From a virus, in IMG/VR virus record IMGVR_UViG_3300025121_000776, positions 96,001-160,000 of that record: a stretch of 64,000 nt of DNA. One strand, written 5' to 3'. A program made the position numbers and the translations under genes. This document shows positions 1 through 37,413 of the stretch, piece by piece; position 1 is the stretch's first letter, and every line of letters starts with the position of its first letter. The notes beneath the pieces are model-generated. The model was not told where the DNA came from. It made no database searches and saw only the letters and a program-made list of their open reading frames with translations.

Positions 1-1670
1 ATCCATCCTCCTATAGTTTGAATTGTTTCACCCATATCAAAACTTTTTACTTCTCTCTGCCTGTTATGAGTTAATTCGTGGCCAATACTTCTTAAAATGT
101 CAACTAAAGCCCTGCCTGTGCATCTTATGTGATTAGAGTTTTCGCCTGGAACATATGAAGCTGTTGTCATTATGTATTCGTCTCTGCCCTTATGAAGATA
201 AATTGACACTGGCTCTTCTATTCCCAATCTATTGCAAACAAAATTTATAAAACTTTTTATTATTTCAACCTTTTCTGGGGTCATTCCTTCAATACCATCT
301 TCAACACCTAAAATATTTTCTTGCTTATCTCCATTTAATTTAAATTTAAGTTTTTTGTTTGGAGGGTAAGAATAAGAAAAAGTATCACTCTCAAAAACAG
401 CACGTTTTTTTAAATCTTTTATGTATTTTTTCCCAGTTCCTGGTTTCACATATGCAATTGTCATATGTGGATGATATTCTGGATGGTCATTTTTATAGGG
501 AAAATTTTCTCTTAAAACACTATTTAACTCATTTAAATCTGGGGAATCAACATCAAATTTTAAAACATCATAATCTTTATTTTCAAATAAAGATATGTTA
601 TTTAATTTAACTTTTAATTTTTCTTTGTTCTGTAATAATTTTTTTGTTGTTTCCTCAACTTCTTCTGGAGAAACTTTATTGGGAATAAATCCAAATAATG
701 CTGTAATATGTGGTTTATCTTCTAATCCATATCCAATAGCATCATAAATATCCTTTTGTTCAATTATACCAGTAATTTTATCCCATCCTTTTATATTTAA
801 ATCTAGCATTAAGCAGCCAAACTCTTTTTTAAATTCTTCTTTTCCTTCTATAATTACTTTTCTTTTATTTTCAACCGATTCAGCCACTTGTTCTTTTTCT
901 GCTAAAGATAAAGAAGAATCAAAAGCGGCTTTTTTAATATTGGAAAGTTTTTCAAGATAATCAGCTTTTCTAATAACTTTAAAAGCAAGATTTTCTACAG
1001 AGTATTCTCCTCCTTGTTCTAAACCAGAATTTCTAAGTTTTTTTAGCTTATCTTTTATTTTTTCAGCTTTAGCTAAAAGTTCCTTTTCATCATTAATTTG
1101 TTCCAAACTATCAATATCATTCATTATTGTAGCTGCCTTTTCTTTAATTGCAACTTCATCAATATCTTTTGTGTATTTTTCTGGCTTTTGAACCCATTCG
1201 TTTTTTAAAACACTATAAACGCCTTTTGAAGAAAACAAAGTTTCTTCATCTTTTGCAAATAATTCTACTTCAAAGCCTTTTATTTTGATATCATGTTCAT
1301 CATTCCACAAGGATTTCTTTGCGACAATATATTCTTGAAGGAATTCCATTGGCTCATTCATTGATTCTAAATCAAGAATTAAGTGAATATCAATATCACT
1401 CATCAAAGTCCAGTTGTAATTAGCTAAGCTTCCAGTAAAAATTACATCTTTTAATTTACAGTTTAATTTTAAATATTCTTTAAAAGCCTTAGCAATTTTT
1501 AATATCGTAAGTCTTGCATCTTTTTTTAATTTCTCTCCATCCCAAATTTCAGCGTTTAAAGTGTCTTTTGGCTCATTTACTTGCACATCAATATCGCTGG
1601 GGGAAATAATCTCTTCAAGAAAACTAAAACTTCTAGTTAAAATATATGGATTTTTTTTCTTTGACTTCAT
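1..1670 (-). CDS. Polyvalent protein (C-terminus runs off the window): Pol-beta-type nucleotidyltransferase + 2H phosphoesterase (Acb1/T4 57B-like) + HExxH zincin-like domain
   Basis: Absent from the ORF track because it has no stop inside the window. Translated by hand at several checkpoints, all in one frame from ATG 1670: FTGSLANYNWTLMSDIDIH (~1383-1439), KPHITALFG (~690-716), EYHPHMTIAY (~450-479), GHELTHN (~63-83). Confidence 0.8.
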   Translation of the reverse strand, partial: MKSKKKNPYILTRSFSFLEEIISPSDIDVQVNEPKDTLNAEIWDGEKLKKDARLTILKIAKAFKEYLKLNCKLKDVIFTGSLANYNWTLMSDIDIHLILDLESMNEPMEFLQEYIVAKKSLWNDEHDIKIKGFEVELFAKDEETLFSSKGVYSVLKNEWVQKPEKYTKDIDEVAIKEKAATIMNDIDSLEQINDEKELLAKAEKIKDKLKKLRNSGLEQGGEYSVENLAFKVIRKADYLEKLSNIKKAAFDSSLSLAEKEQVAESVENKRKVIIEGKEEFKKEFGCLMLDLNIKGWDKITGIIEQKDIYDAIGYGLEDKPHITALFGFIPNKVSPEEVEETTKKLLQNKEKLKVKLNNISLFENKDYDVLKFDVDSPDLNELNSVLRENFPYKNDHPEYHPHMTIAYVKPGTGKKYIKDLKKRAVFESDTFSYSYPPNKKLKFKLNGDKQENILGVEDGIEGMTPEKVEIIKSFINFVCNRLGIEEPVSIYLHKGRDEYIMTTASYVPGENSNHIRCTGRALVDILRSIGHELTHNRQREVKSFDMGETIQTIGGW

Positions 1671-5812: not shown

Positions 5813-6817
5813 ATGAACGTAGTTTTAATAGTGCCTACTGGAATAGGTGCAGAAATAGGCGGACACGCAGGAGATGCAAACCCTGCTGCTAAATTACTTG
5901 CTTCCTGTTGTGATAAACTAATTACACATCCAAATGTAGTAAACGCATCAGATATAAACGAGCAAACTTATAATACTTTGTATGTTGAAGGAAGTATCCT
6001 TGACAGATTTTTGAGAGGTGAAATATATTTGAAAGAAGTATTTTACAACAAAATTCTATTGGTTGTAAATAGTCCTATAAACAATGATACGATAAACGCA
6101 GTTAATGCTGCAAGGACCACAATTGGAGCGGACATTAAAATAGTTGAACTTGAAACTCCATTGGAAATGATGGGATTTTATAAAAATGGAAAAGCTGATG
6201 GCAAAGTAACAGGATGTTTGGAATTAGTTGAACAAATCAAAGATTACGACTTTGCCGCCTTGGCAATTCAAACCAACATACAAGTTGAACGAGAAACAAA
6301 ATTACATTATTTAAAAAATGGTGGGGTAAATCCGTGGGGCGGAATCGAAGCAATTACATCAAAATTAATTGCCGACAAACTTGATAAACCCGTTGCTCAT
6401 TCTCCTTTTGTTGATTGGCAAAACGGACAGGATGACTTAGCAGATTTTAATGAAGTTGTTGACCCCAGAATGAGTGCTGAAATGGTATCACTTTGTTATT
6501 TGCATTGCATTTTAAAAGGATTACATAAAGCGCCAAAAATTGATTACGAAAAAGGACTATCAGTTGATGACGTTGATTTTCTAATAACTCCAATAAATTG
6601 TGTTGGCGAGCCTCATTACGCCTGCATGAATGCTGGAATACCAATTATAGCTGTAAAAGAAAATAAAACTATTTTAAATGATAAAATGCCCGATAATTTT
6701 ATTATAGTAGATAATTATATTGAGGCAGCTGGATTACTTATGGCCTACAAGGCAGGAATAAGCTCACATTCGGTAAGGCGACCAATTCTTAACAATTTTA
6801 ATAAAAACTTAATATAA
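5813..6817 (+). CDS. DUF3326-family protein
   Basis: IVPTGIGAEIGGHAGDA N-terminus, THPNVVNASD, YVEGSILDRF and GVNPWGGIEA motifs recalled from this family. Confidence 0.7.
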   Translation: MNVVLIVPTGIGAEIGGHAGDANPAAKLLASCCDKLITHPNVVNASDINEQTYNTLYVEGSILDRFLRGEIYLKEVFYNKILLVVNSPINNDTINAVNAARTTIGADIKIVELETPLEMMGFYKNGKADGKVTGCLELVEQIKDYDFAALAIQTNIQVERETKLHYLKNGGVNPWGGIEAITSKLIADKLDKPVAHSPFVDWQNGQDDLADFNEVVDPRMSAEMVSLCYLHCILKGLHKAPKIDYEKGLSVDDVDFLITPINCVGEPHYACMNAGIPIIAVKENKTILNDKMPDNFIIVDNYIEAAGLLMAYKAGISSHSVRRPILNNFNKNLI

Positions 6818-6821
6818 AATC

Positions 6822-7067
6822 ATGGAAAAAATACACAATATAAATTTACAACCACTTAAGTCGGTTAGAGCCTGGGACACAAAAAGAGTGAAGGCTTATA
6901 AGAATAGAATTCAAAAACACATTTCTTATTTAGAAACCAATTCGTTTGCCATTTGTTGTGACCATGTCCCAGTTAATGTGAAGCAAGCCGAAGTAGAATT
7001 AGAAAGATTCAGAAACTACAAAGCAGAATTAAAAAAAATTCTTGCAGAAAGAGAACATGTTGACTAA
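6822..7067 (+). CDS. Hypothetical protein
   Basis: 81-aa co-oriented ORF. Confidence 0.55.
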   Translation: MEKIHNINLQPLKSVRAWDTKRVKAYKNRIQKHISYLETNSFAICCDHVPVNVKQAEVELERFRNYKAELKKILAEREHVD

Positions 7068-7132
7068 TTCTACAACTTTTCTAATTTTTTTTCGTATAAA
7101 TTAGTGTAAATAAATTTATAAAATTTAAAAAA

Positions 7133-8332
7133 ATGAGAACAAAATCTTTGGAACCAGTAAATAAAAATTCAATTCTTTGGGCGGATTTATATAAGTTTAC
7201 AATGTGTTGGGCAATTATTAAATTTTTCCCCGAAGCAAAAGTGAGATATGAATTTATTGACCGAAACGATACGGTTTATCCAGATGAATTTGCAGTTGAG
7301 TTAAGAAAAATAGTAAATAACTATAGTCAAAAAAGATTATCTAAACAGCGTAAGGTTGAGTTTGCGAAAGCATGTCCATTCTTGCCAGCTGCTTTTTTTG
7401 ATTTTCTCGAAGGCTACATATATGACCCAAGTGAGGTCGGAATTATTCAAACAGGTGGAAAATTATCAATTCAAATTGCTGGATACTGGTACAGAACTGT
7501 TATGTGGGAAACTACACTAATGGAAGATATTTCTGAGTTATATTTTAATATGACAGGCCAAAGCGATGATAAAGTAGATATTGAGGGCGCCCTACGAAAA
7601 ACTGCAGATAAAACATCTTTATTTCACTTAAATAGCGCACAAGTTGCTGACTTCGGAACAAGAAGAGCAAAGTCAAAAGATATGCATATAGCAATGATTG
7701 ATGTGATGACAAACTCATTAATGTATAAGAATTTTATTGGCTCAAGCAATGTTGAACTTGCACTATATAATGATATTAAAGTAATTGGAACTTATGCACA
7801 TGAATGGGTTTCTGGAATAGGTGCAATGTTTGGATATGCTCATGCAAATAGAATTGCAATGGAAAAATGGTCAGAAACATATAATGGGAATTTAGGTATT
7901 GCTTTAACTGACACATTTACCACAGATGCTTTCTTGGCAGATTTTGATTCTAAATATGCAAATCTTTTCACTGGAGTAAGACACGACAGTAGTGACCCCT
8001 TCGTTTTTACAGATAAAATTATTGACCACTATAAAAAACTTGGTATTGACCCGACTACAAAAACAATCGTTTATTCTGATGGTTTGAATCCAGAAATGGT
8101 TGTTAAATTACAGGATTACCGTAGGGGTGAAATCAGAAAATCATATGGTATTGGAACTAATTTAACAAATGATATTGATGGAGTTAAACCTTTAAACATT
8201 GTTGTTAAACTTCTTGAAATAAATGGAATGGCATCTGTTAAATTATCTGACTCTCCAACGAAACACGTAGGTGACCCAGAAACAATTAAATTTATTAAAT
8301 GGCAGAATTCTCAAAGATTAATGCAAAAATAA
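7133..8332 (+). CDS. pncB: Nicotinate phosphoribosyltransferase
   Basis: DLYKFTM, ADFGTRRA, GTYAHEW, IALTDTFTT, GVRHDSSDP, VYSDGL, GIGTNLTND, VKLSD. Confidence 0.93.
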   Translation: MRTKSLEPVNKNSILWADLYKFTMCWAIIKFFPEAKVRYEFIDRNDTVYPDEFAVELRKIVNNYSQKRLSKQRKVEFAKACPFLPAAFFDFLEGYIYDPSEVGIIQTGGKLSIQIAGYWYRTVMWETTLMEDISELYFNMTGQSDDKVDIEGALRKTADKTSLFHLNSAQVADFGTRRAKSKDMHIAMIDVMTNSLMYKNFIGSSNVELALYNDIKVIGTYAHEWVSGIGAMFGYAHANRIAMEKWSETYNGNLGIALTDTFTTDAFLADFDSKYANLFTGVRHDSSDPFVFTDKIIDHYKKLGIDPTTKTIVYSDGLNPEMVVKLQDYRRGEIRKSYGIGTNLTNDIDGVKPLNIVVKLLEINGMASVKLSDSPTKHVGDPETIKFIKWQNSQRLMQK

Positions 8333-17249: not shown

Positions 17250-17717
17250 ATGGGAAAGTATAAAATAAAAATCAATTACAAGACTGGAAATAGTTTTGAA
17301 AGTCACAACGAATCAGATGTGCTAGAAATTGATTGGGATAATTTTGATGTTGCTAAAGAAAATTTAAAAGCAATAAAAGACCATTATATTAATGTTTATA
17401 AAGAAATAGAAGGTTCGTATTCTGCACAAAAAGACAATCAAAGTGTTTGCAAACAATATCAAAATGAATGGTGGTTTGTAAAAGTTTTAAAACCTTACTG
17501 TATTAGCAAAGATGATGCAATTTCAGAAAATCAAAAAGAAAAATATAAAAACGATTGGGAAAATAGATTTGATACGAGCATTGCCTCACGTTGCATGAAG
17601 CTAAAAACCGATGATGGTTCATTAATGCAAATGCAATGCTTTTGGTGTGGCTATTTTGAGACCTTGCATGGTGCAAAAATTGAAGTGGATGAATCTGATA
17701 CAGAATTTGAGTTGTAA
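17250..17717 (+). CDS. Hypothetical protein
   Basis: 155-aa ORF. Confidence 0.65.
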   Translation: MGKYKIKINYKTGNSFESHNESDVLEIDWDNFDVAKENLKAIKDHYINVYKEIEGSYSAQKDNQSVCKQYQNEWWFVKVLKPYCISKDDAISENQKEKYKNDWENRFDTSIASRCMKLKTDDGSLMQMQCFWCGYFETLHGAKIEVDESDTEFEL

Positions 17718-17769
17718 CAAGAGACTTTTATATGAAAAACGCAATAATTCGTATAATAACAAAATCTTT

Positions 17770-18867
17770 ATGAAAACTATTCTAATGGCTATCTCTGGCG
17801 GTATTTCCGCCTATAAAGCTGCTGATGTAATTAGTGGGCTTAAAAAAAATGGATTTGAGGTTCATGTTATTACAACAAAAAACGCTTTGAATTTTATTGC
17901 CCCCACAGTTATAGGTGCCGTCTCTGGCGGTCATTATGTAACTGATGAAGATGTAAATAAAATCAATCATATTAACGAAGCTCAAAATTGTGATGCATTC
18001 ATCTGCGTTCCAGCGACAGCAAATATCATTGCGAAATTTGCACATGGAATAGCAGATGATTTTGTTTCATCTACTTTCATAGCAATTCCAAGAGGGGTTC
18101 CGAAAATTATATGCCCAGCAATGAACACAGTAATGTTTGAAAGCGAAGCTTGTCTCATGAATTTAAAAACATTGCAAGAGAGGGGGTGTCATATTATTGA
18201 ACCTGTTAGCGGAGAACTTGCTTGCGGTGTTGTTGGAATTGGAAAGCTTCCAAAACCAAGAGATATCGTAAAAGAGGTTATTGAACTTTTTGACACAAGC
18301 AAGCCGTGGTTGTGGCCGCTTCACAAAATGACCCCAACAAAAACTACAGAAGATTCAAATTCATTTTTAAGAATAAGCTTGGAAAGAGAAGTTGAGATTC
18401 CTATAAAATATCACTTTGGTGCTTTTGGAGCCATGAGAAGATTTGACAGACATAGGGGAGTAGATTTATATGCTCCAGTTGGTACTCCTGTGTTTGCTGT
18501 ACAAAAGGGCATAGTTAGAGATATTCGTCCATGGACTGGAACAAATGCTGATTGTGATTGGTGGAATGACACCGATGCAATTTCTGTTGAAGGAGAAGAC
18601 GGACTCGTTGTTTATGGTGAATTGGAAGTAAATTCTGAACTAAAGATTGGAGATGAAGTTAAAGCTGGAGACTTATTGGGACTTGTTTTACGAGTTCTAA
18701 AAAAAGATAAAGGAAGACCAACTAGTATGCTTCATTTGGAACTAAGAAAACCAGGGTTTTACAGAAATATAGATAAAGAATGGAGTCAAGATTTACCAGA
18801 AGGTTTACTTGACCCAACTCCATTCCTTATAAGGGCAATGAAACAACATCATCAATTTAAAAAATAA
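17770..18867 (+). CDS. coaC: Phosphopantothenoylcysteine decarboxylase (HFCD flavoprotein) fused to an M23 peptidase-like domain
   Basis: ISGGISAYKA, PATANIIAK, PAMNTVM, LACGVVGIGKL; then HRGVDLYAPVGTPVFA...VKAGDLLG...MLHLE. Start moved to ATG 17770. Confidence 0.8.
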   Translation: MKTILMAISGGISAYKAADVISGLKKNGFEVHVITTKNALNFIAPTVIGAVSGGHYVTDEDVNKINHINEAQNCDAFICVPATANIIAKFAHGIADDFVSSTFIAIPRGVPKIICPAMNTVMFESEACLMNLKTLQERGCHIIEPVSGELACGVVGIGKLPKPRDIVKEVIELFDTSKPWLWPLHKMTPTKTTEDSNSFLRISLEREVEIPIKYHFGAFGAMRRFDRHRGVDLYAPVGTPVFAVQKGIVRDIRPWTGTNADCDWWNDTDAISVEGEDGLVVYGELEVNSELKIGDEVKAGDLLGLVLRVLKKDKGRPTSMLHLELRKPGFYRNIDKEWSQDLPEGLLDPTPFLIRAMKQHHQFKK

Positions 18868-22145: not shown

Positions 22146-22231
22146 ACCCAATATTTTTTAAAAATAGTGTAACATTTTTATTTTTTTTTCGTATACACAA
22201 GTGAAAATACATTAAATTAAAATTTGTTTAT

Positions 22232-23041
22232 ATGAAAAAAAATGCATTATTAATTATTGACGGACAGAACGACTTTTGTAGCCCTTCGGGTGCTCTCTTC
22301 GTTCCTGGAGCAGACCATGATATGGAGCGTCTAGCTAATTTTATTAAAAGAAATCAAACAAAAATTGGTTATATTGGTTTGACCCAAGATAGCCATATGG
22401 TTCTTGATATTAGTCATCCCCCATTTTGGCAGGATAAAGACGGAAATTCTCCAAATCCATTTACTATTATTACAGCTCAAAACGTAAAAGATGGAACGTG
22501 GACTCCAAAATTTTATCCACTGGCCGCTCTTAAATATTTAGAAGACCTTGAAGCTCAAGGGGAATTTCCACATTGTATATGGCCAATTCATTGTGTTGAT
22601 GGCAGTGAAGGTGCAGCTATTTTTCCAGTTCTTATGAACTCTGTAAAAGAATGGTCAGCTTCTCAGTGTTTATTTCACAAAATTGTTAAAAAGGGAGTTC
22701 ATCCTTTAACCGAGCACTTCGGCGTGTTTCAAGCAAACATTCCAATTCCAGGCGAGGACGGAACACAATTCAACGACAGGTTAGCAAAAATTCTTAATGA
22801 ATATGATACTGTGTATTTCGCAGGAGAAGCTAAAACTCACTGTACCGCTACTTCTTTAAAACAAGCAATGAAGTTTGATAAAAACCTTGCTAAAAAATTC
22901 GTTATCCTTGAAGATTGTATGTCTCCTGTTCCAGGAGAAGCTGCACCAGGACTTACCTTTGAAAAATTGGCTCAGCCAATCTATGATGATGCTAAAGCTC
23001 TTGGCATTCAATTTGTAAAAAGCACAGATGTTACACTATAA
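22232..23041 (+). CDS. pncA: Nicotinamidase / isochorismatase-family cysteine hydrolase
   Basis: IIDGQNDFC, GALFVPGA, DSH, WPIHCVDGSEGA, GEAKTHC. Confidence 0.82.
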   Translation: MKKNALLIIDGQNDFCSPSGALFVPGADHDMERLANFIKRNQTKIGYIGLTQDSHMVLDISHPPFWQDKDGNSPNPFTIITAQNVKDGTWTPKFYPLAALKYLEDLEAQGEFPHCIWPIHCVDGSEGAAIFPVLMNSVKEWSASQCLFHKIVKKGVHPLTEHFGVFQANIPIPGEDGTQFNDRLAKILNEYDTVYFAGEAKTHCTATSLKQAMKFDKNLAKKFVILEDCMSPVPGEAAPGLTFEKLAQPIYDDAKALGIQFVKSTDVTL

Positions 23042-23052
23042 TTTTAAAAACA

Positions 23053-23766
23053 ATGGATAACAATAAAGTGAATTTCGATTTCGGTGGTGACGCCGACTTT
23101 AATCCCGAAAATATCGAGGTAGAAGAAACAATCAATGCAGTATTTGTAGTTGACCTGTCTGCCTCTATGGGCGAAGAAGTAACTCTTAAAGGCGGCACAA
23201 CCTCAACAAGATGCGATGAGCTTAATAAAGCTGTTAATGAATTTGTTGAGAATATGTCAAAAAGCCATGTTAAAGACCGTTTGTTAGTATCAACTATTGT
23301 TTTTGATGCAAAACCAGAAGTTCTTACAGGCTTCCAACCCGTAACAGAAATTGAAGAATTTAAACTTACTCCAAAACACGGTAATACCGCACTTTATGGA
23401 GCCGTAAGACTTGGTTTGGACAAAGCTATTGACTACAGAAACTCTCTGTTAAAAACAGGCGTAAAAGCAAAAACTATCCTTTTTGTTGTTACTGATGGTG
23501 AAAACAATGCTTCTCCACAAAGTGATGCAGAATATGTGAAAGTTAAGTTACAGGAACTAAACAAAGAAGAACAGAATATTATGACATTCTCTTCAGTTCT
23601 TTTGGGAATTGGCGAACAGGCTAATTTTAAACAAGCATTTGATGATTTAGGCTTACATGCCCTAGCTGAACTTGGTGATGATATCAGAAAAGCTGTATCT
23701 ATTATCAGTAGCTCAGTATCAAGTGTTTCAAACGGGCAAAACATTTCTCAGAAATTAAATTTCTAA
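23053..23766 (+). CDS. vWA-domain protein (TerY/YegL-like)
   Basis: MIDAS VDLSASM, GNTALY, VVTDGENN. Confidence 0.85.
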   Translation: MDNNKVNFDFGGDADFNPENIEVEETINAVFVVDLSASMGEEVTLKGGTTSTRCDELNKAVNEFVENMSKSHVKDRLLVSTIVFDAKPEVLTGFQPVTEIEEFKLTPKHGNTALYGAVRLGLDKAIDYRNSLLKTGVKAKTILFVVTDGENNASPQSDAEYVKVKLQELNKEEQNIMTFSSVLLGIGEQANFKQAFDDLGLHALAELGDDIRKAVSIISSSVSSVSNGQNISQKLNF

Positions 23767-23768
23767 AA

Positions 23769-24545
23769 ATGTTCGAAGTTAAAGCCAGAAAAGTAGTAAG
23801 GCGAGGGAGAGCTCATGACCAACGTTGTGAAGACGATTCCCTCGTCTTCTCTTATAATCAAATTTCAGTTATTGCAGTATTTGATGGATGCTCTGATGGA
23901 ACGGATTCTTATTTTGCATCTGGTTTATTTGCTAAAATATTAAAAAAAATAGCAATTGAGGAAGAAAATTTTTTTAAACAAATCAACGAAGAAACAAGTC
24001 TTGAAGATATAGTAAATGTAATAATGTGTTCCTTTTTTTATGAACTAAAGAAGGCAAAATATTATTTAAAGCTTGATGATTCAGAAATATTGTCAACAAT
24101 AGTTCTATCTGCCATTAATTTAAAAACAAAACAATCCTTTTCTATTATTATTGGAGATGGAAGTGTTTATGTTGACGGAGAAATTAATACAATACAACCA
24201 GAAAAAAACGCACCTCGATATATAGCTTATTTTCTTGGAAAAAAATATGAAGATTTTTGGAGTGATGATGTTAATAAATATAAAGCCAAAGTAAAAGATA
24301 CAATAGCTGTAATGAGTGATGGAATTGACTCATTTAGACATTATAGCGAAAACAGATATGTAAACGAAACTGAAAAGGCTGATATTATTCATCGTTTTTT
24401 TAAAAGCGGATATCTTCTTGACAATAAAGTTGGGCTTGCAAGAATTTGTAATATTCTTGACAGTGAACATTTTGCTCCAAGTGATGATTTATCTATTGCC
24501 CATATAACTTTCATAGAAATTCCAGAACAAGATGAAACTATATAA
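23769..24545 (+). CDS. PP2C-like phosphatase (YegK-like)
   Basis: CEDD, VFDGCS, IGDG, SDGID, DDLSI. Confidence 0.85.
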   Translation: MFEVKARKVVRRGRAHDQRCEDDSLVFSYNQISVIAVFDGCSDGTDSYFASGLFAKILKKIAIEEENFFKQINEETSLEDIVNVIMCSFFYELKKAKYYLKLDDSEILSTIVLSAINLKTKQSFSIIIGDGSVYVDGEINTIQPEKNAPRYIAYFLGKKYEDFWSDDVNKYKAKVKDTIAVMSDGIDSFRHYSENRYVNETEKADIIHRFFKSGYLLDNKVGLARICNILDSEHFAPSDDLSIAHITFIEIPEQDETI

Positions 24546-26208
24546 TAAAATAGGCACTCTGGTCAACGTTGATGAAAGCAAAGAGATTGCTAGGGGTGGA
24601 GAAGGAATGATTATAGATATGGGGCATGGAAAAGCCGCCAAAATTTATCATGATACCAAAAACGCATCTTTCACCGAATCAAAACTTCAACATTTATATG
24701 GACTTGATAGCTCTGTTTTTATAAGACCAGAAGAAATTCTTTTTTATAAAAACAAAAAAATAGCTGGATTCATTATGAATATGTTGCCTAAAAATTTCTT
24801 TCCTCTATATTCAGCCTTTAGTTATAATTTCTGTGCCACAAATGGATTGACAGATAAAATAAAATTACAAATAATTAAAACCATTATAAAAAGCATTAAT
24901 TCAGCTCACTCAAAAGATATTATTATTGGAGATTTTAACCCCTTTAATATAATGCTGGACGATAAAGGTACCACTTTCTTTATTGATACAGATTCATATC
25001 AAACTCCAGGGTCAGTGCATTCTGGCAAATTATTAGATGATATCAGAGACCATTTAAAACATGGCGTAATAAATAAAGAGAGTGACTACTATGCTCTTGC
25101 GGTAATAGTGTTTAATTTTCTAACTAATATACACCCCTTTAAAGGCTCACATTCAATTTATAAAAGCCTTCCAGAACGTGCAATTCAAAAAATTACAGTA
25201 TTTGATAATGACCCACACCTAATTGTTCCAAAGTGTTATCACCCTATCCAAGACAAATATTTAATGGAACAATTTAAGAGAATATTTAAAGATGGGGAAA
25301 GATTTGCAATTAGCCTTGATGCTACAACAGATATTATTCATGTAATTAATATCGACAAAGTTATTGAAAAAGAAGGAGAATTAACAATTACGCCAATGTT
25401 AAGAAATGTTGAAATAAGATATGTCAATTGCAGTAACAACCTTGCTTGTGTAGCACTTAAAGACGAAATTATTGTTTATAGCGTGAGAGATAGGGGCTTC
25501 TACAAAGAACTTGGCAGAATACCAAGAACAAGTAAAGATTTAGCTCCGCTTCCAACTGATAAAAACTTATTTGTATTTGAAGATAAAAAGTTCTACAAAT
25601 ACGACCTTGACACCTTTCAAAGAACTGAAATGGATGATATGGGTATTGAAAACATGGTTGTTGCAAAGCAATATGGAAATATATTTGTTGTAATTGAAGA
25701 AAATAAAATGTTTACGTTATATTTGGATGATTCTGTTGGAACACACATTAGATTTAAAACAAAAGAAGTGTTCGGAAACAGTTTTAAAAAGTATAATGGT
25801 ATGATGCAAAATTTTGGCCAGAACACTTACTTAAGAGTAAATAATAATGATAATCTCGATACAATTATCTATGATGATGTATTAAGTGATGTTTACCAAG
25901 ATGGAGATATGGGAATTGCCCAGACTGTAAAAAAAGGAAAAATAAATTTCGACCTATTCAAAATTAATGGCCTTAAACTTGAAAAACATTCTTACCCCCT
26001 TAATTCTATCAGACACTTCGGTTATAATCCTGGCAACTTCATTATTATGCCAGAGGATAATCAATTAATATTCCTTAATCACAGCACATTGGAACCAATT
26101 GCTAAGTTTAAGTGTAGCATTGCCGATGAATCAACACAGGTGTTTTATACAAGGGGAGGAATCTTATTGAACGATTCGAAGAATTTATATATGGTAAACA
26201 AAAAGTAG
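24532..26208 (+). CDS. Ser/Thr kinase-like protein (YegI-like) with long C-terminal domain
   Basis: ARGGEG, AAKIY, IGDFNPFNI, FIDTDS, SDYYALAV, HPFKG. Confidence 0.82.
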   Translation: MKLYNKIGTLVNVDESKEIARGGEGMIIDMGHGKAAKIYHDTKNASFTESKLQHLYGLDSSVFIRPEEILFYKNKKIAGFIMNMLPKNFFPLYSAFSYNFCATNGLTDKIKLQIIKTIIKSINSAHSKDIIIGDFNPFNIMLDDKGTTFFIDTDSYQTPGSVHSGKLLDDIRDHLKHGVINKESDYYALAVIVFNFLTNIHPFKGSHSIYKSLPERAIQKITVFDNDPHLIVPKCYHPIQDKYLMEQFKRIFKDGERFAISLDATTDIIHVINIDKVIEKEGELTITPMLRNVEIRYVNCSNNLACVALKDEIIVYSVRDRGFYKELGRIPRTSKDLAPLPTDKNLFVFEDKKFYKYDLDTFQRTEMDDMGIENMVVAKQYGNIFVVIEENKMFTLYLDDSVGTHIRFKTKEVFGNSFKKYNGMMQNFGQNTYLRVNNNDNLDTIIYDDVLSDVYQDGDMGIAQTVKKGKINFDLFKINGLKLEKHSYPLNSIRHFGYNPGNFIIMPEDNQLIFLNHSTLEPIAKFKCSIADESTQVFYTRGGILLNDSKNLYMVNKK

Positions 26209-26718: not shown

Positions 26719-27858
26719 ATGCAAAAACCACCAATTAAACTAAGAGAAATTATCTGGGAAATAACTGGACAATGTTTTAATAATTGTTCATATTGTGGCT
26801 CAAAAGATGTGTCTAAAAAAGCCCTTACACACGAACAAATCATTGACATTGCTCAAGCTATTGCTGATTTTCCCCCAAAAGAAATTAACATAAGTGGAGG
26901 AGACCCATTAACTCTTCCAGCTGACCTTCATATTGAAATTTTAAGGATTTTAAAACAGTCAGAAATAGTCTGCAAAATTATTGTTAATCCAAAATCCATT
27001 AAAAACCCATTATCTGCAGCTTTTGAAATTGTTAAAATGTATGATTGGGCTGGAATTTCTATTAATACCCAAAAAGAATTACAAATCTTTGAAGATATCG
27101 CAGAAACTAAAGAATATGAAAATTACACCGTCATAACAAATTTTAACATTCAAAATCTTTATCAATTTGAAGAAATTGAAGCGTTTGTTAAAAAATATGA
27201 TAAAATGTGGACAATTCAATTTACAGTTTATCAAGACAAAGATAATCCACTTGCTTTATACCATCCAGATAATCAAATTGCTTTTGAATTATTACAACAA
27301 AAGGTTAATACAAGTTCAGCAAAAATAGTTCTATCAGACAATATAAGAAATGATATGCCTTGCGGTGCTGGATTTAGCTCTGTAGGCATCACATATGATG
27401 GTTATGTTATTCCATGTTTAAGTATGAGAAGTTGGAGGGATATTCAAAATTTATGTGAAAAAGAAATATATCAAAATATTTTAAAAACTCCTTTTGAGGA
27501 AATTTGGCAAACATCTTTTATTAATGAAAGATTTTGTAAATTTGAATGTTGCAAAGACATATGTCTCAATAAAACTCTCGAAATAAAAAGTTTTGAAAGA
27601 AAAGTATTTGAGATAACTCCAAAGTCTGAAGAAGAAAAAAAAGATTGGGAAAAAAACATTAATGAATTTTTAAAAAAAGTTAAAAAGGAAAATCCTCCAT
27701 TTGATGCAGGGCAAGTTGTTATGTATGGGGTTATTTCTCCAAGAAATTTTCCAGGTGGTGGCGGAGTTGTTATGTATGGGGTCATTTCTCCAAGAAACTA
27801 CCCTCCCGATGACGACAATGGCGGCGGAATTGTTTTAATGTATGGTGTATTTAGGTAA
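26719..27858 (+). CDS. Radical SAM/SPASM enzyme, splicease (PlpX-like) candidate, with a C-terminal tail bearing three MYG motifs
   Basis: WEITGQCFNNCSYCGS (CxxxCxxC), SGGDP, CGAG...DGYVIPC; tail VVMYGVI x2 and LMYGVF. Confidence 0.8.
   Translation: MQKPPIKLREIIWEITGQCFNNCSYCGSKDVSKKALTHEQIIDIAQAIADFPPKEINISGGDPLTLPADLHIEILRILKQSEIVCKIIVNPKSIKNPLSAAFEIVKMYDWAGISINTQKELQIFEDIAETKEYENYTVITNFNIQNLYQFEEIEAFVKKYDKMWTIQFTVYQDKDNPLALYHPDNQIAFELLQQKVNTSSAKIVLSDNIRNDMPCGAGFSSVGITYDGYVIPCLSMRSWRDIQNLCEKEIYQNILKTPFEEIWQTSFINERFCKFECCKDICLNKTLEIKSFERKVFEITPKSEEEKKDWEKNINEFLKKVKKENPPFDAGQVVMYGVISPRNFPGGGGVVMYGVISPRNYPPDDDNGGGIVLMYGVFR
27715..27797 (+). repeat. Coding direct repeat with 51-nt period encoding VVMYGVISPRN
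   Basis: gttgttatgtatggggt(t/c)atttctccaagaaa at 27715 and 27766; a third degenerate copy at ~27830-27852. Confidence 0.9.
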
Positions 27859-27888: not shown

Positions 27889-27916
27889 AAAAAATCCTCC
27901 AGTTGGAGGATTTTTT
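27889..27916. terminator. Intrinsic terminator
   Basis: AAAAAATCCTCC-agtt-GGAGGATTTTTT. Confidence 0.8.
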
Positions 27917-36270: not shown

Positions 36271-37413
36271 ATGAACTCAGAGATTTCGGGAGACCCAGAG
36301 GTTGTCCCATTCGTAGGAAAAATAAATTTATTCAAAGAAAAGTATTTTTCCCAAGCTACAGATTTGGAATGGAATAACTGGAAATGGCAATTGCAACATG
36401 CAATCAAAACTACAGAAGAATTACAACATTTTATCAAACTTACAAAAGAAGAAACAATCAAAACTGCTGGGCTTCCTCTTAAAATTACACCATATTATCT
36501 TAATTTGTTTTATAACAAAAAGCAAAATGACCCATTGAGAAAAACTATGGTGCCAACTACTCATGAACTTATAGATAGTTTCGGAGAACAAATTGACCCT
36601 CTTGGAGAAAATCACGATTCCCCAATACCTGGATTGGTTCATAGATATCCAGATAGAGTTTTAATTCTTACCACAAATGTTTGCTCTGCCAATTGTAGAT
36701 ATTGCACCCGTTCTAGAATTATTGAAAACGATAATAGTGAGCACAAAAGTGTAAATATCTATGCCATTATAAATTATATAAAGCAAAATAAACAAATTCG
36801 AGATGTTATTTTATCAGGGGGAGACCCACTTATAATGTCCGATGATAAACTTGAATTCCTTTTAAAAGAACTTAGAAATATTGGGCATGTTGAAATGATT
36901 CGTATAGGTACTAAGGTACCCTTTGTTCTTCCTCAAAGAATTACAGATGACTTGGTGAATATGATAAAAAAGTATCACCCAGTGTTTATGAGCATTCACT
37001 CAACTCACCCCAACGAGATTACCCCAGAATCCAAAGCCGCCATCTTAAAATTGGCCGATGCAGGACTTGTATTGGGAAGTCAAACTGTTTTATTAAAGGA
37101 AATAAATGATAATACTGTAACTCTTAAAAATTTATTTCACGAACTTTTAAAACTTCGTGTCAGACCTCTATATTTATATCAATGCGACCCCATAAAAGGC
37201 TCAGCTCATTTTAAAACAAAAATTGATGACGGGCTTAATATTATAAAAGGGCTAAGAGGACATACCAGCAGCTACGCTATTCCGCAATTTGTTATTGATG
37301 CTCCTGGCGGGGGAGGGAAAATTCCGATTGTGCCAAATTCAGTTGTTTCGAAAGATGAAAAATATATTTATCTTAAGAATTACGAAAACGAAGTATTTAA
37401 GTACCCACTATAA
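36271..37413 (+). CDS. kamA: KamA/EpmB-family radical SAM aminomutase (lysine 2,3-aminomutase-like)
   Basis: HRYPDRVL, CSANCRYCTR, LSGGDPL, IRIGTK, DAPGGGGKIP. Confidence 0.88.
   Translation: MNSEISGDPEVVPFVGKINLFKEKYFSQATDLEWNNWKWQLQHAIKTTEELQHFIKLTKEETIKTAGLPLKITPYYLNLFYNKKQNDPLRKTMVPTTHELIDSFGEQIDPLGENHDSPIPGLVHRYPDRVLILTTNVCSANCRYCTRSRIIENDNSEHKSVNIYAIINYIKQNKQIRDVILSGGDPLIMSDDKLEFLLKELRNIGHVEMIRIGTKVPFVLPQRITDDLVNMIKKYHPVFMSIHSTHPNEITPESKAAILKLADAGLVLGSQTVLLKEINDNTVTLKNLFHELLKLRVRPLYLYQCDPIKGSAHFKTKIDDGLNIIKGLRGHTSSYAIPQFVIDAPGGGGKIPIVPNSVVSKDEKYIYLKNYENEVFKYPL

What the first reader, a model, noticed from the sequence alone, without database searches (positions are those of the whole stretch)
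26719..27858. Phage-encoded self-substrate splicease: radical SAM enzyme with three MYG cores in its own tail
Seen: after a complete radical SAM/SPASM body, a linker leads into GQVVMYGVISPRNFPGGGG-VVMYGVISPRNYPPDDDNGGG-IVLMYGVFR*. The first two units are a 51-nt DNA duplication, so the core has been amplified. Known: PlpX-type spliceases excise tyramine at XYG motifs (MYGV context in PlpA precursors) to make alpha-keto-beta-amino acid residues, which are protease-inhibitor warheads. Inference: a one-gene RiPP system in a phage producing ketoamide peptides, plausibly aimed at host proteases (including defence proteases). No separate precursor or RRE partner is evident nearby.
Basis: partly seen in the sequence, partly recalled or inferred. 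Interest (0 to 1): 0.88.

Follow-up and report, generated by a model that had tools for sequence, protein, structure and literature searches.

The report
Phage radical enzyme with tyrosine-repeat tail
A large uncultured phage encodes an iron-sulfur "radical SAM" enzyme whose own floppy tail carries three copies of a short motif built around a never-changing tyrosine, a design kept in hundreds of related phage enzymes, so the enzyme probably rewrites its own tail chemically, although no experiment has tested this and the chemistry is open.

Summary
The ORF at 26719-27858 (+) encodes 379 aa: a radical SAM core (CxxxCxxC, C19/C23/C26), a SPASM-like Cys region, a confident helix (304-324), and a tail with three V-x-M-Y-G-V cores (Y336, Y353, Y375). 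The "51-nt duplication" is a 33-nt repeat (32/33 identical) at a 51-nt period.

It is not a one-off. About 256 clusters at 50% identity belong to the family. Some 96% of members carry 1-5 tail copies of [V/T/I]-x-[V/M/A/L]-Y-[G/A]-V, and the members found in viral contigs lie mostly on 80-372 kb contigs. The first-core Tyr is invariant in 149 of 149 aligned sequences. No neighbour gene is conserved beyond close syntenic relatives.

The fold is closest to peptide-modifying rSAM enzymes (PqqE, CteB, SuiB, SkfB). I read it as an enzyme fused to its own substrate cores (about 0.6).

Splicease membership fails: TIGR04103 scores 32 bits against a cut-off of 725. In addition, 41% of cores are Y-A rather than Y-G. 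Tyramine splicing therefore remains only the leading guess (about 0.35). The main rivals are a Tyr-to-Val cyclophane and a tail that is not a substrate at all. The proposed protease target is speculation.

This scan has already reported the same family on other phage DNA (e1-5657459, e1-5657473, e1-5319536, e1-5378634). I found no published description.

The parts
26719..27858 (+). Gene for the 379-aa radical SAM/SPASM-type enzyme with fused Tyr-core tail (stop codon included)
   Evidence: ORF list and sequence; Pfam Radical_SAM and SPASM above cut-off; 110 homologues with E down to 1e-178
26773..26796 (+). CxxxCxxC motif (C19, C23, C26) that would hold the SAM-cleaving 4Fe-4S cluster
   Evidence: Invariant in the 75-sequence alignment A1 and at least 90% conserved in the 149-sequence A2; Cys positions
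27361..27564 (+). SPASM/twitch-like auxiliary-cluster region: C215, G218, C233, then C273-x3-C277-C278-x3-C282
   Evidence: C215, C233, C277 and C278 invariant, C282 at least 90%; Pfam SPASM 215-276. Five conserved Cys rather than the canonical seven (sequence reading)
27628..27690 (+). Amphipathic helix (residues 304-324) between the enzyme body and the cores
   Evidence: AF2 helix with pLDDT 84-94 in both models. A W-charged helix signature is present in only 31 of 175 family members
27715..27732 (+). Core 1: V333-V-M-Y336-G-V338
   Evidence: Y336 invariant in 149 of 149 aligned sequences. pLDDT 79 in the one-core AF2 model
27766..27783 (+). Core 2: V350-V-M-Y353-G-V355. It is orthologous to the first core (VVMYAV) of the nearest relatives
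27832..27849 (+). Core 3: V372-L-M-Y375-G-V377, four residues from the C-terminus
27714..27797 (+). Recent tandem duplication: two 33-nt copies (27714-27746 and 27765-27797, 32/33 identical) spaced 51 nt apart
   Evidence: the repeat finder family D1; base-by-base comparison. Nearest relatives P0002 and P0003 have two cores, not three
27889..27916 (+). Intrinsic-terminator-like hairpin (12 pairs, then a T run) 31 nt after the stop codon. The gene is the last of its operon
22188..22195 (+). TTCGTATA motif ahead of the six-gene run (isochorismatase-like, vWA, PP2C, kinase, 162-aa unknown, rSAM); a likely phage promoter element
   Evidence: 13 copies in the window against 1.6 expected; gene order

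Best explanation
The protein is a peptide-modifying radical SAM enzyme made in one piece with its own substrate. The N-terminal 290 residues bind a 4Fe-4S cluster and SAM and generate a 5'-deoxyadenosyl radical. A helix and a proline-rich linker then lead into one to five short cores, three in this protein. Each core is built around an invariant tyrosine, with the pattern [V/T/I]-x-[V/M/A/L]-Y-[G/A]-V. The cores are fed into the active site of the same chain or of a sister chain and are modified there. The chemistry I rate most likely is splicease-type excision of a tyramine unit from the tyrosine, which would leave an alpha-keto-beta-amino amide (here beta-methionine-derived) at each core.

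Shown here: the domain make-up, the motif and its conservation, the copy-number turnover, the lack of a partner gene, and the phage setting.

Inferred: that the tail is the substrate (about 0.6), that the reaction is splicing (about 0.35 overall), and anything about release or target of the product.
For: 1. Pfam Radical_SAM and SPASM are both above cut-off, and CxxxCxxC plus five auxiliary Cys are conserved.
2. The AF2 body has pLDDT above 90. The best Foldseek PDB matches are peptide-modifying SPASM/twitch enzymes: PqqE 6c8v (E 1.2e-10), CteB 5why/5wgg, SuiB 5v1q and SkfB 6efn.
3. Architecture: 96 of 97 homologues have Y-[G/A] in the tail, and 100 of 104 further representatives carry the strict motif, the four without it being short (276-320 aa). 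The family has 256 clusters at E<=1e-30.
4. There are 210 motifs in the tails, against 1 in the bodies and 1.8 in shuffles. Y336 is invariant in 149 of 149 sequences.
5. Cores behave like multi-core RiPP cassettes. Copy number runs from 1 to 5, with at least 42 changes between one and several copies on the tree. This gene holds a 32/33-identical duplication that its two nearest relatives lack.
6. No gene is shared around the rSAM in 17 viral loci. Synteny is kept only in the 65-69% identical relatives.
7. When only one core is left, AF2 raises its pLDDT to 79, against 64 for the linker before it.
8. For splicing specifically: native sites are MYG and LYG, and the PlpA2 tag is AVAA-x-YGVVFP, compared with VVMYGVISP here (PMC10533398 Table 1, PMC11414181, PMC11626197). 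An activating helix next to the enzyme is needed in spliceases and works when fused to the enzyme's C-terminus (PMC11414181).
Against: There is no experiment on any family member. The protein is not a TIGR04103/IPR026482 member (32 bits against 725, N-terminal 80 residues only), and it is no closer to that model than to MoaA, viperin or HxsC models. Every splice site described in the papers I could read is X-Y-G. Here 148 of 360 cores are Y-A, 35 of 175 proteins are Y-A only, and G and A swap at least 24 times on the tree. The strongly conserved beta-branched residue at +2 (V in 319 of 360) is not a stated splicease requirement. In the full-length AF2 model the tail has pLDDT 42-58, so it is not confidently placed. 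Model coordinates cannot be read with these tools, so whether the core sits near the cluster is unknown. No protease or exporter is linked. I found no body residue that co-varies with core type (underpowered).
Confidence: 0.35

Rival explanations
1. Same fused enzyme-substrate logic, but different chemistry. The enzyme abstracts the tertiary C-beta hydrogen of the valine two residues after the tyrosine and joins it to the tyrosine ring. This would be a three-residue cyclophane of the triceptide type (aromatic1-X2-X3), or another Tyr-Val crosslink, and would give rigid, protease-resistant knots in the tail.
For: Triceptides are defined by an aromatic-to-C-beta crosslink on aromatic1-X2-X3 motifs, often several per precursor (PMC11499958). 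Y-[G/A]-V fits that formally. The +2 residue is V in 319 of 360 strict-motif cores (that pattern admits only V/I/T/A/C at +2). In the unrestricted count it is V, I or T in 211 of 231. These are all beta-branched, which splicing does not explain. The +1 residue is always small and swaps freely between G and A. The triceptide synthase ChlB (9gm3) is among the fold matches (E 2.7e-7, TM 0.49).
Against: ChlB matches no better than a dozen other SPASM enzymes. There is no N-terminal RRE-like domain, since the rSAM core starts at about residue 10. The conserved -3 and -1 positions lie outside the three-residue ring. No Y-G-V or Y-A-V triceptide motif appeared in the papers I read.
Confidence: 0.2
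2. The tail is not a substrate. The enzyme acts on something else (a small molecule, nucleic acid, or a host or phage protein). The hydrophobic Y-[G/A]-V strands would then serve as a docking, oligomerisation or autoinhibitory element, for example short beta-strands that pair with each other or with a partner.
For: Core-to-core spacing peaks at 10-12 residues with P/G/N/D-rich turns. The full-length AF2 model draws short strands at each core, at low confidence. The family is equally distant from small-molecule rSAM models such as MoaA and viperin. Many tails continue beyond the cores (median 25 residues), and three end in an SSB-tip-like [D/E][D/E]-L-P-F, which looks like an address tag.
Against: About a quarter of members have a single core and cannot form a sheet alone. 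Copy number and linker length change constantly, with at least 42 changes, and linkers are 18% proline, which is unlike a folded repeat domain. A recent in-frame duplication is tolerated. An invariant Tyr beside a radical enzyme whose nearest folds all modify peptides would then be coincidence.
Confidence: 0.25
3. Self-substrate with yet another outcome. Options include epimerisation of the hydrophobic residues around the tyrosine (PoyD/YydG/EpeE-like). Another is sacrificial cleavage of the tyrosine side chain (ThiH/HydG-like), in which the released fragment rather than the tail is the product.
For: The epimerase EpeE appears among the fold matches (8ai2-8ai6, E about 5e-6). The cores are rich in V/I/M, which are typical epimerase targets. 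CofH, a tyrosine-cleaving rSAM, gives a weak N-terminal hit.
Against: The EpeE and CofH matches are among the weakest listed. An invariant Tyr is not needed for epimerisation. One to five tyrosines per protein would be a very poor yield for a metabolite.
Confidence: 0.08

Closest known systems
Tyramine spliceases and spliceotides (PlpX/PlpY/PlpA, PcpX, RhaX/RhaA, RcsX, RasX; NCBIfam TIGR04103 = IPR026482)
   Same: Radical SAM enzyme with a SPASM-type C-terminal domain. Target sites are built on hydrophobic-Tyr-Gly (native MYG and LYG), with several sites per precursor. The PlpA2 tag AVAA-x-YGVVFP resembles VVMYGVISP here. A helix adjacent to the enzyme is needed for activity and still works when fused to the enzyme's C-terminus (PMC11414181, PMC10533398, PMC11626197).
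   Different: The protein scores 32 bits against the 725-bit cut-off of TIGR04103, and only over the generic N-terminal 80 residues. Substrate and enzyme are one polypeptide. There is no Nif11/NHLP leader and no Y protein. 41% of family cores are Y-A, and V at +2 is nearly fixed. The family is phage-borne. Only engineered enzyme fusions, to the Y protein or to the RhaA leader, appear in the papers I could read.
Triceptide synthases (3-residue cyclophane-forming rSAM enzymes, e.g. ChlB, HtkB, HaaB)
   Same: SPASM rSAM enzymes that act on short, repeated aromatic1-X2-X3 motifs. Y-[G/A]-V fits that template, and a beta-branched X3 offers a tertiary C-beta hydrogen.
   Different: There is a separate precursor with a leader, recognised through an N-terminal RRE-type region that this protein lacks. 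The fold match to ChlB is no better than to PqqE, CteB or SuiB. No Y-G-V motif is reported in the paper read (PMC11499958).
Autocatalytic fused RiPP precursors: borosins (OphMA-type) and plant burpitide BURP-domain cyclases
   Same: The enzyme domain and one or more core peptides lie in the same polypeptide, so the protein modifies itself (PMC7878506, PMC10107690). This is the closest precedent for the architecture.
   Different: The enzymes are unrelated (SAM-dependent N-methyltransferase; copper BURP domain), the hosts are eukaryotic or bacterial, and the chemistry differs. A dedicated release peptidase is known for omphalotin (my own knowledge); none is linked here.
NCBIfam TIGR04133 family radical SAM/SPASM proteins
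   Same: It is the only named model hit by all 75 members scanned, and over most of the length (residues 7-279; best E 2.9e-15). The Atlas structure search also lists it (TM 0.62).
   Different: 31 bits against a cut-off of 425, so the protein is not a member. The function of TIGR04133 is itself unknown.

Membership tests
Tyramine spliceases (TIGR04103 / IPR026482) | Scores above the curated cut-off of the family model | tested here: not met
   32.2 bits against 725, on residues 9-89 only. 63 of 75 relatives hit it, best E 5.4e-11, which is no better than MoaA, viperin or HxsC models.
Tyramine spliceases (TIGR04103 / IPR026482) | Radical SAM CxxxCxxC plus SPASM auxiliary-cluster domain | tested here: met
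   Pfam PF04055 and PF13186 above cut-off. Cys are conserved, although only five auxiliary Cys are conserved.
Tyramine spliceases (TIGR04103 / IPR026482) | Substrate sites are X-Tyr-Gly | tested here: inconclusive
   All three cores of this protein are M-Y-G. Family-wide, however, 148 of 360 cores are Y-A and 35 of 175 proteins have Y-A only.
Tyramine spliceases (TIGR04103 / IPR026482) | Separate precursor with leader (Nif11/NHLP or other), with or without a PqqD-like Y protein | tested here: not met
   No conserved neighbour in 17 viral loci. The upstream 162-aa protein has no Pfam or NCBIfam hit and is kept only in syntenic relatives.
Tyramine spliceases (TIGR04103 / IPR026482) | Loss of C8H9NO (135.07 Da) leaving an alpha-keto-beta-amino amide | not testable with these tools
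   Needs expression and mass spectrometry.
Triceptide synthases (3-CyFE) | Repeated aromatic1-X2-X3 motif in the substrate | tested here: met
   Y-[G/A]-V, with V at +2 in 319 of 360 cores. This is a formal fit only.
Triceptide synthases (3-CyFE) | Specific sequence or fold kinship to known cyclophane synthases, with a leader-binding N-terminal region | tested here: not met
   ChlB 9gm3 ranks 17th (E 2.7e-7, TM 0.49), behind PqqE, CteB, SuiB, MoaA and SkfB. The rSAM core starts at about residue 10, so there is no room for an RRE.
Triceptide synthases (3-CyFE) | Loss of 2 Da per motif with an aromatic-to-C-beta bond | not testable with these tools
   Needs MS and NMR.
Autocatalytic fused RiPP precursors (borosin / burpitide type) | Modifying enzyme and core peptide(s) in one polypeptide | tested here: met
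   Single ORF. The design is kept in about 96% of relatives.
Autocatalytic fused RiPP precursors (borosin / burpitide type) | Enzyme is an alpha-N-methyltransferase or a BURP-domain copper cyclase | tested here: not met
   The enzyme is radical SAM/SPASM.
TIGR04133 radical SAM/SPASM family | Scores above the curated cut-off | tested here: not met
   31.3 bits against 425. All 75 relatives hit it, but far below the cut-off.
   G000 is an IMG/VR virus record of 186,855 bp, 57% complete by CheckV. It has a baseplate wedge PHROG hit at genome 41250-43148, and an HNH homing endonuclease and a tRNA nucleotidyltransferase in the window. Terminase_6N and Gp23 Pfam models found nothing in this partial record.

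The most novel reading that the evidence does not exclude
Large phages carry a widespread one-gene RiPP-like system. A radical SAM enzyme is permanently fused to multi-copy tyrosine cores and converts its own tail into reactive (alpha-ketoamide) or cross-linked peptides during infection. These would serve as effectors against host proteins, for instance proteases used in defence. It would be the first natural radical SAM enzyme-substrate fusion and a new class of phage-made modified peptides.
Probability: 0.35. Interest if true: 0.88.

Novelty: new variant of a known kind. Interest (0 to 1): 0.7.

Why it matters
If the tail is the substrate, this would be the first natural radical SAM maturase I could find that is fused to its own cores. 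The architecture is otherwise known from borosins and burpitides. It would also be a large family (about 256 clusters at 50% identity) that the data here place mostly in large uncultured phages, where ribosomal peptide chemistry is barely explored. A single 1.1-kb gene that installs ketoamides or cyclophanes on its own tail would be a compact protein-engineering tool. It would also open a directly testable question about what phages do with such warheads. The Y-[G/A]-V rule would widen the known sequence scope of tyrosine-directed radical peptide chemistry, whichever reaction it turns out to be.

Tried and rejected
1. Complex prediction of body (1-296) against tail (297-379) returned no verdict (score 0.03, controls not run). 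I count it as neither for nor against.
2. I tried to obtain a genuine splicease locus for a phylogeny by scanning genome contigs for back-translated PlpA2 and PlpA3 cores. Both scans found 0 matches. So no splicease sequence was in hand, no tree was built, and kinship rests on HMM scores only.
3. tblastn against 50,697 GenBank phage records found no match.
4. A search for longer, fused homologues (665-2000 aa) found none.
5. Body-tail covariation (YG-only against YA-only proteins, against every body column, using independent pairs on a FastTree) gave no significant column. The best was residue 57 (N vs D, beside the SGGDP SAM-binding motif), which went the same way in about 3 of 8 supported pairs, median p 0.25. 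The test is underpowered.
6. P0030 looked like a tail-less split form, but it is a gene truncated by an IS605/TnpB insertion. No core remnant lies within the 3.3 kb scanned from the gene start (L018 4000-7300).
7. The profile search of PDB sequences gave only generic rSAM hits (LAM, BtrN, HydE; E>=6e-5).
8. The Atlas search gave only generic rSAM/SPASM clusters.
9. PADLOC gave N-terminal viperin hits only, which I read as generic rSAM similarity.
11. I considered a PqqE-type Glu-Tyr crosslink and rejected it because there is no conserved Glu upstream of the Tyr. I rejected thioether chemistry because the cores contain no Cys.

Full report
**What is there.** The window is part of an IMG/VR virus record of 186,855 bp. 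It has 29.6% G+C and is linear, and CheckV rates it 57% complete. The setting is a tailed phage. A baseplate-wedge protein lies at genome 41250-43148, with SbcC-like and helicase genes nearby. The window itself holds an HNH homing endonuclease, a tRNA nucleotidyltransferase, an RNA-ligase-like protein and NAD-salvage genes. Pfam finds Radical_SAM (14-117) and SPASM (215-276), both above cut-off. The three Tyr-Gly sites are Y336, Y353 and Y375.

The duplication is a 33-nt repeat (27714-27746 and 27765-27797) that is 32/33 identical, and the one difference is synonymous. The period is 51 nt, and the other 18 nt have diverged. The gene ends an operon that starts behind a TTCGTATA motif at 22188. 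That motif occurs 13 times in the window against 1.6 expected. The operon runs through an isochorismatase-like gene, a vWA gene, a PP2C phosphatase, a protein kinase and a 162-aa unknown. A terminator-like hairpin follows at 27889-27916.

**It is a family, not a curiosity.** A word-indexed search gave 110 homologues. A profile search of 1.84 billion representatives gave 256 clusters at E<=1e-30 and 543 at E<=1e-10. Of 97 homologues with a readable tail, 96 have at least one Y-[G/A]. Of 104 further representatives, 100 carry the strict motif, and the four without it are short (276-320 aa).

Over 175 full-length proteins there are 360 cores. Position -3 is V, T or I in 329. Position -1 is V, M, A or L in 324. 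The Tyr is fixed. Position +1 is G in 212 and A in 148. Position +2 is V in 319. In a 149-sequence alignment the first-core Tyr is invariant. The motif occurs 210 times in 9,447 tail residues, once in 28,369 body residues, and 1.8 times on average in shuffled tails. The rest of the tail is hypervariable, and the linkers are 18% proline.

Seventeen relatives lie in IMG/VR contigs, most of them 80-372 kb long. No gene family other than the rSAM is shared by more than four of these loci. The operon context of this window is kept only in the 65-69% identical relatives P0002 and P0003, whose genomes are syntenic.

**How the cores evolve.** Copy number runs from 1 to 5. On a FastTree of the enzyme bodies, 'one core' against 'several' changes at least 42 times. 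'Y-G only' against 'Y-A only' changes at least 24 times. Of the 175 proteins, 68 are Y-G only, 35 are Y-A only and 72 are mixed.

This window illustrates both processes. Its two nearest relatives have two cores. The extra core here is the duplicate, and the orthologous core reads MYAV in the relatives and MYGV here. So the selected unit is Y-small-V with hydrophobic residues before it. Gly is not required, and cores are gained and lost as cassettes, as in multi-core RiPP precursors.

**Structure.** AF2 models the body at pLDDT above 90. Residues 304-324 form a confident helix. Foldseek ranks PqqE, CteB, SuiB, MoaA, SkfB, viperin-like enzymes, ChlB and anSME at TM about 0.5. The top four are peptide-modifying SPASM/twitch enzymes.

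In the full-length model the tail has pLDDT 42-58, with short strands at each core. I then kept only one core (residues 1-343) and used a 149-sequence alignment. In that model the core block 331-340 rose to pLDDT 79, while the linker block before it stayed at 64. That fits a defined placement of a single core on the body. I cannot read coordinates with these tools, however, so its distance from the cluster is unknown. The body-versus-tail complex job gave no verdict.

**Kinship.** No NCBIfam model comes near its cut-off. TIGR04103 is the PlpX family, and PMC11002830 gives PlpX as IPR026482. It scores 32 bits against 725, over residues 9-89 only. Across 75 relatives, TIGR04133 is hit by all (best 2.9e-15). 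TIGR04103 is hit by 63 (best 5.4e-11), on a par with MoaA, viperin and HxsC models. The PDB sequence search gives only generic hits. The family is therefore an undescribed radical SAM/SPASM-type clade and not a member of the splicease family. I could not obtain a splicease sequence for a tree.

**Mechanism.** The best-supported reading is an enzyme fused to its own cores (about 0.6). The grounds are an invariant Tyr next to a radical enzyme of peptide-modifying fold, the lack of any partner gene, the cassette-like turnover, and the rise in AF2 confidence for a lone core.

Which reaction occurs is open. Several points favour splicing. Native sites are MYG and LYG, and the PlpA2 tag is AVAA-x-YGVVFP (PMC10533398, PMC11414181, PMC11626197). 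Spliceases also need an adjacent activating helix, which works when fused to the enzyme's C-terminus (PMC11414181), and this protein has a confident helix just before its cores. That helix signature, however, is seen in only 31 of 175 relatives.

Against splicing, every published site I could read is X-Y-G, whereas 41% of the cores here are Y-A. The near-fixed beta-branched +2 residue is better explained by a triceptide-type Tyr-to-C-beta crosslink on aromatic1-X2-X3 (PMC11499958).

A non-substrate role for the tail (docking strands, plug, address tag) is not excluded. Spacing peaks at 10-12 residues with turn-like linkers. Many tails also continue beyond the cores, and three end in an SSB-tip-like DDLPF.

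**Novelty and earlier notes.** Eight literature searches found no radical SAM enzyme naturally fused to its substrate and no description of this phage family. One review reports that the published splicease survey combined a PlpX BLAST search with the rSAM-SPASM proteins of UniProt reference proteomes (PMC10849128). The nearest architectural precedents are borosins and burpitides (PMC7878506, PMC10107690).

This scan has already reported the same family on other phage DNA, with the same conclusion (e1-5657459, e1-5657473, e1-5319536, e1-5378634). The first two concern a 291-kb phage with five cores. That appears to be my locus L001, judged from the contig length (290,886 bp) and the five cores. 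My counts were made independently, and I stated my reading before those notes were shown. This window adds four things: a member with a fresh core duplication, an orthologous G/A swap, the one-core AF2 result, and the explicit cyclophane alternative.

Noticed in passing
window 36271-37413 (+): A second radical SAM gene in the same phage. It is KamA/lysine-2,3-aminomutase-like (Pfam LAM_C 9e-19, Radical_SAM, Fer4_12). It is also kept in the syntenic relatives (L023 11775-12917).
   Followed up: partly
window 23053-26208 (+): vWA, PP2C phosphatase and protein kinase genes abut or overlap directly upstream in the same operon (a TerY-like triad; PADLOC TerY is only 4e-4). Earlier notes of the scan flagged this too. 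It is conserved with the rSAM only in close syntenic relatives, so it is probably not a functional partner.
   Followed up: partly
window 17647-18867 (+): A fusion of an HFCD-type flavoprotein domain (PF02441, 4.7e-29; the family of CoaC/EpiD-like cysteine decarboxylases) with an M23 peptidase domain. This is an unusual pairing for a phage lysis-type protein.
   Followed up: no
window, 13 sites (e.g. 7091, 10868, 22188, 28589): The octamer TTCGTATA occurs 13 times against 1.6 expected, mostly just upstream of gene runs. It is a candidate phage promoter element.
   Followed up: partly
L018 4001-6605: One family member (P0030, 299 aa) is cut short right after its CCKD motif by an IS200/IS605 element (TnpB-like gene on the opposite strand plus a Y1 transposase). 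No core remnant was found within the 3.3 kb scanned from the gene start.
   Followed up: yes
proteins P0014, P0025, P0120 (C-termini): Three relatives end in [D/E][D/E]-L-P-F, which resembles the acidic tip of bacterial SSB. Some other relatives carry several Cys after the cores that look zinc-ribbon-like (L003; P0135, which my core pattern did not admit to the 175-protein set). My two-CxxC check, run on that set, flagged none. The part after the cores may be an address tag.
   Followed up: no
window 6-1670 (-): A 555-aa protein with a 2H-phosphoesterase/2'-5' RNA ligase-like domain, and a weak sub-threshold match to the anti-CBASS Acb1 family (PF23474, 22 bits against a cut-off of 27).
   Followed up: no
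window 5813-8332 and 22232-23041 (+): NAD-related genes: DUF3326, a nicotinate phosphoribosyltransferase (PF04095, 1.9e-59), and an isochorismatase/nicotinamidase-like gene that heads the operon containing the rSAM.
   Followed up: no
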